Positions 20,676-21,389 of a stretch of DNA of 64,000 nt are shown piece by piece. The first letter of the stretch is position 1. Each line of letters begins with the position of its first letter. Under the pieces are notes generated by a model, which had not been told where the DNA came from, made no database searches, and saw only the letters and a list, made by a program, of their open reading frames with translations. Origin of the DNA: Escherichia coli. Lineage in GTDB: Bacteria; Pseudomonadota; Gammaproteobacteria; Enterobacterales; Enterobacteriaceae. The stretch lies in NCBI RefSeq assembly GCF_965641715.1, contig NZ_OZ282453.1, one strand, 5' to 3'. A program made the position numbers and the translations under genes.

Positions 20676-21389
20676 ATGAATGTTAATTACCTGAATGATT
20701 CAGATCTGGATTTTCTCCAGCATTGTAGTGAGGAACAGTTAGCAAATTTCGCCCGGCTGCTCACCCATAATGAAAAAGGCAAAACTCGCCTCTCCAGCGT
20801 ACTGATGCGCAACGAACTGTTTAAATCGATGGAAGGACATCCCGAGCAACATCGCCGCAACTGGCAGCTGATTGCTGGAGAATTACAGCATTTTGGTGGC
20901 GATAGTATCGCCAACAAACTGCGCGGACACGGTAAATTGTATCGGGCCATTTTGCTCGATGTTTCAAAGCGATTGAAGCTGAAAGCCGACAAAGAGATGT
21001 CTACGTTTGAAATTGAGCAACAGTTACTGGAACAATTTCTGCGTAATGCCTGGAAGAAAATGGACGAGGAACATAAGCAGGAGTTTCTGCACGCGGTCGA
21101 TGCCAGGGTGAATGAGCTGGAAGAGCTGCTGCCGCTGCTGATGAAAGACAAATTATTGGCAAAAGGTGTGTCGCATTTGCTTTCCAGCCAATTGACCCGC
21201 ATTTTACGCACCCACGCAGCAATGAGCGTGCTTGGGCATGGTTTGCTGCGCGGCGCGGGTCTGGGAGGCCCTGTGGGCGCAGCATTAAATGGGGTTAAAG
21301 CGGTCAGCGGCAGCGCCTATCGCGTGACGATTCCAGCCGTACTGCAAATCGCCTGCCTGCGCCGGATGGTTAGCGCCACTCAGGTCTGA
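20676..21389 (+). CDS. yaaW: uncharacterized protein YaaW
   Basis: 237 aa ORF, MNVNYLNDSDLDFLQHCSEEQLANFARLLTHNEK...; position matches K-12 yaaW. Confidence 0.8.
   Translation: MNVNYLNDSDLDFLQHCSEEQLANFARLLTHNEKGKTRLSSVLMRNELFKSMEGHPEQHRRNWQLIAGELQHFGGDSIANKLRGHGKLYRAILLDVSKRLKLKADKEMSTFEIEQQLLEQFLRNAWKKMDEEHKQEFLHAVDARVNELEELLPLLMKDKLLAKGVSHLLSSQLTRILRTHAAMSVLGHGLLRGAGLGGPVGAALNGVKAVSGSAYRVTIPAVLQIACLRRMVSATQV

What the first reader, a model, noticed from the sequence alone, without database searches (positions are those of the whole stretch)
20676..21389. yaaW with a long antisense overlapping frame (historical htgA)
A 174-aa frame runs on the opposite strand entirely within yaaW (20687-21211). 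This overlap was historically annotated as htgA and has been debated as a genuine overlapping gene. Sequence alone cannot decide whether it is a real gene or a by-product of codon usage.
Basis: partly seen in the sequence, partly recalled or inferred. Interest (0 to 1): 0.25.

Follow-up and report, generated by a model that had tools for sequence, protein, structure and literature searches.

The report
Known htgA/mbiA shadow frame in yaaW
The long reading frame on the strand opposite the E. coli gene yaaW is real and is the long-debated htgA/mbiA, but comparison with other genomes finds selection on yaaW and none on the antisense frame, so it is most likely a by-product of the YaaW sequence.

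Summary
yaaW lies at 20676..21389 (+), and a 174-aa ORF (GTG start; 171 aa from the ATG at 21202) lies wholly inside it at 20687..21211 (-). This is K-12 b0012 htgA/mbiA. The third codon positions of the two frames coincide.

Several results argue against a selected protein:
- **Chance:** recoding YaaW with synonymous codons gives an equally long open stretch in 6-7% of trials. The window holds 15 antisense-embedded ORFs of at least 171 aa.
- **Distribution:** the frame is open only in Escherichia. Citrobacter, Salmonella, Kluyvera and Pseudescherichia carry several stops each within the stretch that is open in E. coli.
- **Length polymorphism:** E. coli products are 171, 161, 145 or 105 aa. 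The stop alleles occur in 1500, 248 and 154 of 5426 complete genomes.
- **No constraint:** changes silent in YaaW alter MbiA as often as neutrality predicts (33 of 109). Transitions silent in MbiA never alter YaaW (0 of 68).
- **Product:** 24% Ser and 9% Cys, no family, no true homologues, no confident fold.

Most likely this is an unselected shadow ORF. A young, weakly functional gene, as published phenotypes claim, is not excluded. It is already known, and interest is low.

The parts
20676..21389 (+). yaaW coding sequence, 237 aa. This is the conserved sense ('mother') gene.
   Evidence: ORF. Pfam DUF3944 (1.2e-14) plus Ubiq_cyt_C_chap (4.7e-16). NCBIfam NF007593 over the full length, 518.6 bits. 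Colinear orthologues at 72-98% identity in Escherichia, Citrobacter, Salmonella, Kluyvera and Pseudescherichia. dN/dS is about 0.02-0.03 within Escherichia.
20687..21211 (-).
   Evidence: The GTG is not conserved in Escherichia sp. E1V33 (GTC) or E. albertii (GTA).
20687..21202 (-). Equivalent of K-12 mbiA/htgA (b0012), from the annotated ATG: 171 aa plus a TAA stop in this strain, against 161 aa in K-12.
   Evidence: K-12 annotation 10830..11315, mapped by window x = 32032 minus the K-12 coordinate. Lengths. No Pfam or NCBIfam hit. AlphaFold2 mean pLDDT 28.6.
20690..21316 (-). The whole stop-free stretch of the antisense frame, 209 codons. It is bounded by a TAG at 21317..21319 and a TAA at 20687..20689.
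   Evidence: The stops lie at yaaW nt 642 and nt 12.
20717..20719 (-). Polymorphic antisense stop site (yaaW nt 42-44). It is open (C at nt 42) in this window. A T here gives TGA and the 161-aa K-12 form.
   Evidence: The T allele is in 1500 and the C allele in 3853 of 5426 complete E. coli genomes. The change is silent in YaaW.
20765..20767 (-). Polymorphic antisense stop site (yaaW nt 90-92). It is open here. A T at nt 90 gives TGA and a 145-aa product (IAI39, E. albertii).
   Evidence: The stop allele is in 248 of 5426 genomes. It is silent in YaaW.
20885..20887 (-). Polymorphic antisense stop site (yaaW nt 210-212). It is open here. A T at nt 210 (YaaW L70F) gives TGA and a 105-aa product (CFT073, Nissle 1917).
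   Evidence: The stop allele is in 154 of 5426 genomes. Delaye 2008 already noted the nonsense mutation in CFT073.
21209..21217 (-). Weak Shine-Dalgarno-like GCGUGGGUG, 7-15 nt upstream of the ATG.
   Evidence: Duplex energy with the 16S 3' end is -3.9 kcal/mol. The median for 45 gene starts in the window is -3.5, and 17% of 528 antisense-strand ATGs inside genes do as well. The 30-mer 21193..21222, which holds the ATG, the GTG and this motif, is identical in 5373 of 5426 genomes.
21001..21285 (-). A second, shorter antisense ORF inside yaaW (94 aa, in the third antisense phase).
   Evidence: No Pfam hit. Its open run of 97 codons is ordinary for that phase.

Best explanation
The antisense frame is a 'shadow' ORF. 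It is an open frame that follows from the YaaW protein sequence and is not maintained by selection for its own product.

Mechanism, read directly from the sequence. In this phase the third codon positions of the two strands coincide. An antisense stop can only arise where a yaaW codon ending in T precedes a His or Gln codon (CAN), or where a codon ending in T or C precedes a Tyr codon. YaaW has very few Tyr. Most of its His and Gln codons follow Glu, Gln, Lys or Trp codons, which can never end in T. Only about 1.6-1.9 stops are therefore expected across the mbiA span. In the Escherichia lineage the few remaining opportunity sites happen not to be T. The Y72F replacement in YaaW removed one stop that most other genera carry.

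The region may be transcribed and even translated at a low level, as is reported for many antisense ORFs. Inference: the 105-171-aa Ser/Cys-rich product evolves as if it did not matter. The only selected coding information at this locus is yaaW.
For: 1. Chance. Synonymous recoding of YaaW gives an open run of at least 209 codons in 6.4-7.0% of trials, and no stop in the mbiA span in 12-15%. Of 20 opportunity sites within the mbiA span, 11 have zero probability of giving a stop.

2. Such frames are common. 21 open antisense stretches of at least 150 codons occur among the 45 genes of the window, and 15 antisense-embedded ORFs are at least 171 aa.

3. Not conserved outside Escherichia. There are 3-6 stops inside the mbiA span in the complete Citrobacter, Salmonella, Kluyvera, Pseudescherichia, UBA7338 and ESNIH1 orthologues, and the ATG is absent in the three complete Citrobacter sequences and in ESNIH1.

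4. Nonsense alleles are common in E. coli: 1500, 248 and 154 of 5426 genomes, giving 161, 145 and 105 aa. Nonsense changes make up 2 of 109 YaaW-silent changes, against 1.7-2.1% expected under neutrality.

5. No constraint on the MbiA sequence. Among YaaW-silent changes in 17 Escherichia sequences, 21 of 89 transitions alter MbiA (16.8% expected) and 12 of 20 transversions do (55.6% expected). In the reciprocal test, 0 of 68 MbiA-silent transitions alter YaaW (13.2% expected, P = 7e-5). The result is the same when only the N-terminal 105 codons are used.

6. Synonymous divergence in the overlap (0.51-0.97 against other Escherichia species) is not lower than in the neighbours yaaI (0.21-0.72) and satP (0.20-0.31).

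7. Codon log-odds is -0.47 per codon, like the antisense frames of other genes (mean -0.41) and unlike real genes (at least +0.20). The product is 24% Ser and 9.4% Cys.

8. No Pfam or NCBIfam family. Only one genuine cluster (14 sequences) was found among 5.8 billion. AlphaFold2 gives pLDDT 28.6 with no secondary structure.

9. PGAP annotates no such gene in any RefSeq genome examined except the curated K-12 record.

10. In an EDL933-wide screen by the laboratory that studies mbiA, the coordinates of this ORF are absent from the tables of expressed and footprint-positive antisense ORFs.
Against: Published experiments argue for a gene. Delaye 2008 summarises cloning, Northern blots, protein labelling and promoter mapping from the original 1993 htgA study. 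Fellner et al. 2014 (FEMS Microbiol Lett 350:57) is cited as showing a phenotype for strand-specific mutants. That paper is not held, so I could not examine it. An intragenic promoter in htgA/yaaW was reported active in vitro (PMC2731890).

At least 105 codons from the same ATG stay open in the 15 Escherichia sequences that cover this stretch (two further partial sequences also have the ATG), although dS reaches about 1 against E. albertii. The ATG region is identical in 99% of E. coli genomes. The SD-like motif is as good as that of a median gene.

My selection tests have limits. They count alleles against a consensus in 17 sequences, without a tree. In this phase power is low, because most YaaW-silent changes are also MbiA-silent. 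Weak selection on a young gene would escape them. AlphaFold on a single sequence is not informative for orphans.
Confidence: 0.7

Rival explanations
1. mbiA is a genuine, very young protein-coding gene that arose by overprinting inside yaaW in the Escherichia ancestor (the Delaye 2008 and Fellner 2014 view). It would be translated from the ATG at 21202. The functional part would be the N-terminal ~105 residues, and the C-terminal tail would be free to vary.
For: - The ORF with the same ATG is open for at least 105 codons in all 15 Escherichia sequences that cover this stretch; two further partial sequences also have the ATG.
- The start region is identical in 5373 of 5426 E. coli genomes.
- The SD-like motif has a duplex energy of -3.9 kcal/mol.
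- It is kept as a CDS in the curated K-12 record.
- The literature reports transcript, labelled protein and mutant phenotypes.
Against: - There is no depletion of MbiA-altering changes even within the N-terminal 105 codons: 13 of 53 transitions against 18.5% expected, and 5 of 11 transversions against 54.7%.
- Nonsense alleles that remove 6-39% of the protein reach 3-28% frequency.
- Composition and codon usage are those of an antisense frame.
- There is no predicted fold.
- The openness is within chance expectation.
- The rate slow-down that Delaye used as evidence was not reproduced with close outgroups. In 24 trios the E. coli-specific changes in yaaW nt 1-408 were about equal to, or more than, those of Salmonella or Citrobacter. 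The three Citrobacter trios with Kluyvera genomosp. 3 as outgroup were the clear exception. The supposedly slowed region is also the part of MbiA that the nonsense alleles delete.
- Conservation of this phase is an expected side effect of selection on the sense frame (PMC4182739).
Confidence: 0.2
2. The relevant product is an antisense RNA, not a protein. Transcription from a promoter inside or behind yaaW would modulate yaaW (or yaaI) expression by transcriptional interference or RNA pairing, and the ORF would be incidental.
For: An intragenic promoter in htgA/yaaW was reported active in vitro. A transcript was reported by Northern blot in the original work as summarised by Delaye. RNA-level effects could explain phenotypes of mutants that change the antisense strand.
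Against: There is no Rfam match at E <= 1. No sigma-70 consensus promoter lies on the minus strand upstream of the ORF in the simple scan. No stretch of reduced synonymous divergence would mark a conserved RNA element. The ORF's coordinates are absent from the table of 864 RNA-seq-expressed antisense ORFs in EDL933.
Confidence: 0.08

Closest known systems
htgA / htpY / mbiA (E. coli K-12 b0012, YP_009518733.1)
   Same: It is the same locus and the same frame, with the same ATG. It lies inside yaaW with third codon positions coinciding. Delaye 2008 calls this the 123/213 phase.
   Different: This strain's allele lacks the K-12 TGA at yaaW nt 42, so it encodes 171 aa rather than 161. The 171-aa form is the commoner one: at most about 3451 of 5426 genomes, against 1500.
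Shadow ORFs (long open frames antisense to real genes), such as the one opposite dnaK in this window
   Same: It lies wholly within a conserved gene. Its openness is explained by the sense protein and its codons. Its composition is that of an antisense translation. It shows no independent constraint.
   Different: Most long shadow ORFs here are in the codon-complement phase (12 of 15 at or above 171 aa). This one is in the rarer phase where third positions coincide. It covers 88% of its host gene, the highest fraction for that phase among the 45 genes.
Experimentally supported antisense overlapping genes of EHEC (nog1/citC, laoB, ano, asa, pop/ompA)
   Same: All are embedded antisense ORFs restricted to Escherichia and proposed to arise by overprinting. 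mbiA/yaaW is listed with them.
   Different: Ribosome-profiling evidence is described for ano and pop (abstracts); I did not read the evidence for nog1, laoB or asa. For mbiA I found none, and the ORF's coordinates are absent from the EDL933 expression and footprint tables. Its frame is broken by common alleles within E. coli.

Membership tests
Bona fide protein-coding overlapping gene (overprinted de novo gene) | Intact ORF of stable length maintained across the lineage that has it | tested here: not met
   Lengths of 171, 161, 145 and 105 aa occur among 12 E. coli strains, and 145 aa in E. albertii. The stop alleles are in 1500, 248 and 154 of 5426 genomes. Only the first 105 codons are always open.
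Bona fide protein-coding overlapping gene (overprinted de novo gene) | Purifying selection on its own amino-acid sequence, separable from that on the host gene | tested here: not met
   33 of 109 YaaW-silent changes alter MbiA, against 19-27% expected. By class, transitions are 23.6% against 16.8% and transversions 60% against 55.6%. The reciprocal test on YaaW is significant: 0 of 68, P = 7e-5. Power is limited (17 sequences, no tree).
Bona fide protein-coding overlapping gene (overprinted de novo gene) | Start codon with a ribosome-binding site | tested here: inconclusive
   The ATG is present in all Escherichia sequences. The SD-like motif scores -3.9 kcal/mol, equal to a median gene, but 17% of antisense ATGs inside genes match it.
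Bona fide protein-coding overlapping gene (overprinted de novo gene) | Evidence of transcription and translation of the frame | not testable with these tools
   There are no expression data here. The literature is mixed: positive claims are summarised, and the ORF is absent from the EDL933 tables of expressed and footprint-positive antisense ORFs.
Bona fide protein-coding overlapping gene (overprinted de novo gene) | ORF longer than expected given the host gene | tested here: not met
   P(open run >= 209 codons) = 0.064-0.070, and P(no stop in the mbiA span) = 0.12-0.15.
Shadow ORF (unselected antisense open frame) | Openness explained by the sense protein sequence and codon usage | tested here: met
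   Eleven of 20 stop-opportunity sites within the mbiA span have zero probability. The expected number of stops is 1.6-1.9.
Shadow ORF (unselected antisense open frame) | Codon usage and amino-acid composition of an antisense translation, not of a real protein | tested here: met
   Log-odds is -0.47 per codon, against a mean of -0.41 for antisense frames and at least +0.20 for real genes. Ser is 24% and Cys 9.4%, against 5.4% and 1.2% in real proteins of the window.
Shadow ORF (unselected antisense open frame) | Frame closed in related genera that keep the host gene | tested here: met
   Every complete non-Escherichia orthologue has 3-6 stops inside the mbiA span.
YaaW family (NCBIfam NF007593; Pfam DUF3944 + Ubiq_cyt_C_chap), for the sense gene | Full-length match above the curated cut-offs | tested here: met
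   NF007593 scores 518.6 bits against a cut-off of 395, over positions 1-237 of 237. PF13099 scores 54.3 against 24, and PF03981 59.6 against 21.5.

The most novel reading that the evidence does not exclude
MbiA is a real protein caught very early in gene birth. It would be a lineage-restricted, weakly expressed polypeptide whose first ~105 residues have acquired a small condition-dependent function (the reported biofilm phenotype), while its tail is still drifting through nonsense polymorphism. The common 171, 161, 145 and 105-aa alleles would then be a natural allelic series for studying how an overprinted gene settles on its length.
Probability: 0.15. Interest if true: 0.45.

Novelty: already known. 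Interest (0 to 1): 0.12.

Why it matters
htgA/mbiA is one of the most cited examples of a bacterial gene born by overprinting, and it is still a CDS in the reference E. coli K-12 annotation. If it is only a shadow ORF, one textbook-style example falls. It also becomes a useful caution: in this phase, conservation of the antisense frame is a side effect of selection on the sense gene. For the genome scan itself nothing new is present, because the feature is ordinary and already described.

Tried and rejected
- **Homologues of MbiA.** A search of 5.8 billion protein clusters gave four hits. One is the true E. coli cluster. P0002 and P0004 come from assemblies in which neighbouring genes are fragmented (dnaK in four pieces, satP in two, for P0002), so they are frame-mixing artefacts. 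P0003 is a chimera on a 697-nt contig.
- **Delaye's slower evolution of yaaW nt 1-408 in E. coli.** It was not reproduced with close outgroups in 24 Tajima trios.
- **Reduced synonymous rate in the overlap.** It was not seen relative to yaaI and satP. It is lower than in the 3' third of yaaW in two of three inter-species comparisons but not against E. albertii, so I give it no weight.
- **Known RNA family.** None at E <= 1.
- **Consensus promoter upstream on the minus strand.** None. The minus-strand terminator-like hairpin at 20655..20638 is within the number expected from shuffles.
- **Solved structures related to YaaW.** None.
- **AlphaFold2 of MbiA.** pLDDT 28.6. It is uninformative on its own because only a single sequence was available.
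- **Papers not held.** Fellner 2014 and the Ribo-RET and Onc112 papers could not be read.
- **Accessions.** NC_011751.1 and NC_011745.1 are not in the collection.

Full report
**What is there.** The window is E. coli chromosome in reverse orientation relative to K-12 (window x = 32032 minus the K-12 coordinate). It is 99.8% identical to strain DSM 103246 and about 98.7% identical to K-12-like strains over 20400..21700. The stretch is present in 5424 of 5426 complete E. coli genomes.

yaaW is at 20676..21389 (+), 237 aa. A 174-aa ORF (GTG start) runs on the minus strand at 20687..21211, entirely inside it. The stop-free stretch in that frame is 209 codons, 20690..21316. The curated K-12 record annotates this frame as mbiA (b0012, 10830..11315, 161 aa, 'uncharacterized protein MbiA') and yaaW as 'putative enzyme-specific chaperone YaaW'. 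The K-12 ATG is window 21202. From there the frame encodes 171 aa in this strain, because the K-12 TGA at yaaW nt 42 is absent.

**Phase and why the frame is open.** mbiA codon position 1 lies opposite yaaW position 2, position 2 opposite position 1, and position 3 opposite position 3. Delaye 2008 calls this the 123/213 phase. In this phase an antisense stop needs a sense codon ending in T before CAN (His or Gln), or a codon ending in T or C before TAY (Tyr).

Within the mbiA span (yaaW codons 5-176) there are 20 such opportunity sites, and 11 of them follow Glu, Gln, Lys or Trp codons, which cannot end in T (a further site, Asn4|Tyr5, forms the ORF's own stop). The expected number of stops in the mbiA span is 1.6-1.9. 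In 20,000 synonymous recodings, the probability of an open run of at least 209 codons is 0.064 (codon usage of the window's genes) or 0.070 (permutation of yaaW's own codons). The probability of no stop in the span is 0.12-0.15.

In the window's 45 confidently coding genes I counted 21 antisense open stretches of at least 150 codons (16, 4 and 1 in the three phases). One is a 213-codon stretch in the same phase, opposite 47810..48916. The frame opposite dnaK is completely open. Fifteen antisense-embedded ORFs are at least 171 aa. The yaaW case is the largest fraction of a host gene in its phase (0.88), but it is not statistically unusual.

**Distribution.** One scan of a one-genome-per-species collection returned 17 yaaW loci. 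All orthologues are colinear without indels, so positions compare directly.

- The ATG and an open frame of at least 145 codons are present in E. coli, 'E. coli' SCPM-O-B-8794 (a divergent lineage), Escherichia sp. E1V33 and E. albertii. The partial E. whittamii and MOD1-EC7003 sequences are open as far as they go.
- The three complete Citrobacter sequences, Salmonella diarizonae, four Kluyvera, Pseudescherichia vulneris, UBA7338 and ESNIH1 have 3-6 stops inside the mbiA span.
- The three complete Citrobacter sequences and ESNIH1 lack the ATG.

This agrees with Delaye's restriction of the ORF to E. coli and Shigella.

**Within E. coli.** Twelve strains show four product lengths:

| Length | Strains |
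|---|---|
| 171 aa | window, DSM 103246, Sakai, SMS-3-5, E2348/69, M8, S1-SRL-01-C |
| 161 aa | K-12, IAI1, 99RCEF |
| 145 aa | IAI39 |
| 105 aa | CFT073 |

I then used 30-nt queries that megablast can only match if the variant base is present. The counts in 5426 complete genomes were:

| Allele | Genomes |
|---|---|
| nt 42 T (stop, 161 aa) | 1500 |
| nt 42 C (open) | 3853 |
| nt 90 T (stop, 145 aa) | 248 |
| nt 210 T (stop, 105 aa; includes Nissle 1917) | 154 |

These are lower bounds, because nearby SNPs lose matches. The ATG region (21193..21222) is identical in 5373 genomes.

**Selection.** Because third positions coincide, purifying selection on YaaW automatically protects most of the antisense frame. 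Delaye made this point, and PMC4182739 made it explicitly for this pair. The informative changes are those silent in one frame and not in the other.

- Among 17 Escherichia sequences, 109 changes in the overlap are silent in YaaW, and 33 of them alter MbiA (2 are nonsense).
- By class, 21 of 89 transitions alter MbiA (16.8% of possible ones would) and 12 of 20 transversions do (55.6% possible). There is no depletion.
- The nonsense fraction of 2 in 109 equals the neutral expectation of 1.7-2.1%.
- Reciprocally, of 68 transitions silent in MbiA, none alters YaaW (13.2% expected, P = 7e-5).
- The same asymmetry holds for the N-terminal 105 codons alone.

Synonymous divergence in the overlap (0.53, 0.51 and 0.97 against SCPM, E1V33 and E. 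albertii) is not below that of yaaI (0.21, 0.40, 0.72) or satP (0.27, 0.20, 0.31). YaaW dN is 0.010-0.018. Delaye's relative-rate slow-down of yaaW nt 1-408 was not reproduced with close outgroups. That region is also the part of MbiA removed by the common nonsense alleles. These tests count alleles against a consensus, use no tree and have modest power. They would miss weak selection.

**The product and signals.**
- MbiA is 24% Ser, 9.4% Cys and 9.4% Arg, with no His. Its codon log-odds (-0.47) matches antisense frames of other genes (mean -0.41, maximum -0.26), not real genes (minimum +0.20).
- It has no Pfam or NCBIfam match.
- Only one genuine cluster exists in 5.8 billion. The other hits are assembly artefacts.
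- AlphaFold2 gives pLDDT 28.6 and no secondary structure, with the single-sequence caveat.
- An SD-like GUGGGUG lies 7-13 nt upstream of the ATG (-3.9 kcal/mol). That is median for genes, and 17% of antisense ATGs reach it.
- There is no consensus sigma-70 promoter upstream on the minus strand and no Rfam family.

**Literature.** Delaye 2008 proposed overprinting but called the gene's existence controversial. It noted that sigma-32 induction was not confirmed, that the start codon had been moved, and that CFT073 has a nonsense mutation.

Fellner 2014 is cited as giving a phenotype but is not held. From memory only, it reported strand-specific stop mutants with biofilm and metabolite differences and no heat-shock induction.

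An intragenic promoter was reported active in vitro. In a later EDL933-wide study from the same group, the ORF (10736..11362) appears in the BLAST table. Its coordinates are absent from the tables of 864 RNA-seq-expressed ORFs, 216 footprint-positive ORFs and additional candidates. PGAP annotates no mbiA in any RefSeq genome examined.

**Verdict.** The feature is real, correctly identified and already known. The comparative evidence obtained here favours an unselected shadow ORF (0.7) over a young functional gene (0.2) or a functional antisense RNA (0.08). Only expression and complementation experiments can close the question.

Noticed in passing
window 20676..21389 (yaaW), and RefSeq E. coli genomes generally: NCBIfam equivalog NF007593 is named 'acidic protein MsyB' but matches YaaW end to end (518.6 bits). 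The real MsyB (K-12 b1051, 124 aa) hits NF008544 and has no similarity to YaaW. As a result every PGAP-annotated RefSeq record I examined labels yaaW as gene msyB, which looks like a mislabelled model propagating a wrong name. The stretch itself is present in 5424 of 5426 genomes.
   Followed up: yes
window 17875..19911 (+), opposite dnaK 17953..19869 (-): A 678-aa ORF runs antisense across the whole of dnaK in the codon-complement phase, so the frame has no stop anywhere in the gene. It is a much longer shadow ORF than the one under study.
   Followed up: partly
window 47810..48916 (-) and 48051..48557 (+): Another gene has a 213-codon open stretch in the same third-positions-coincide phase, with a 168-aa ATG-started antisense ORF. 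It is a close parallel to yaaW/mbiA that nobody has named.
   Followed up: no
NZ_CP180600.1 (hit H12); L025 974..2347: Strain PS2Canimalfeces12 has an IS1 inserted in yaaW, which is annotated there as separate DUF3944 and ubiquinol-cytochrome C chaperone family proteins. yaaW (and mbiA) therefore looks dispensable in that strain. E2348/69 has an ISEc13 between mog and satP.
   Followed up: no
L003 (NZ_JAATUR010000005.1): The record titled 'Escherichia coli strain SCPM-O-B-8794' differs from the window at 77 of 714 yaaW positions. That is as far as Escherichia sp. E1V33, whereas other E. coli differ at 2-20 positions. It is probably a cryptic Escherichia lineage filed as E. coli.
   Followed up: no
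summary: Three of the 5430 matches to the yaaI-yaaW-satP stretch are on records typed as plasmids, and a few genomes have two copies. I did not examine them.
   Followed up: no
window 21001..21285 (-): A second antisense ORF of 94 aa lies inside yaaW in the remaining antisense phase. It has no family match and an ordinary length for that phase.
   Followed up: partly
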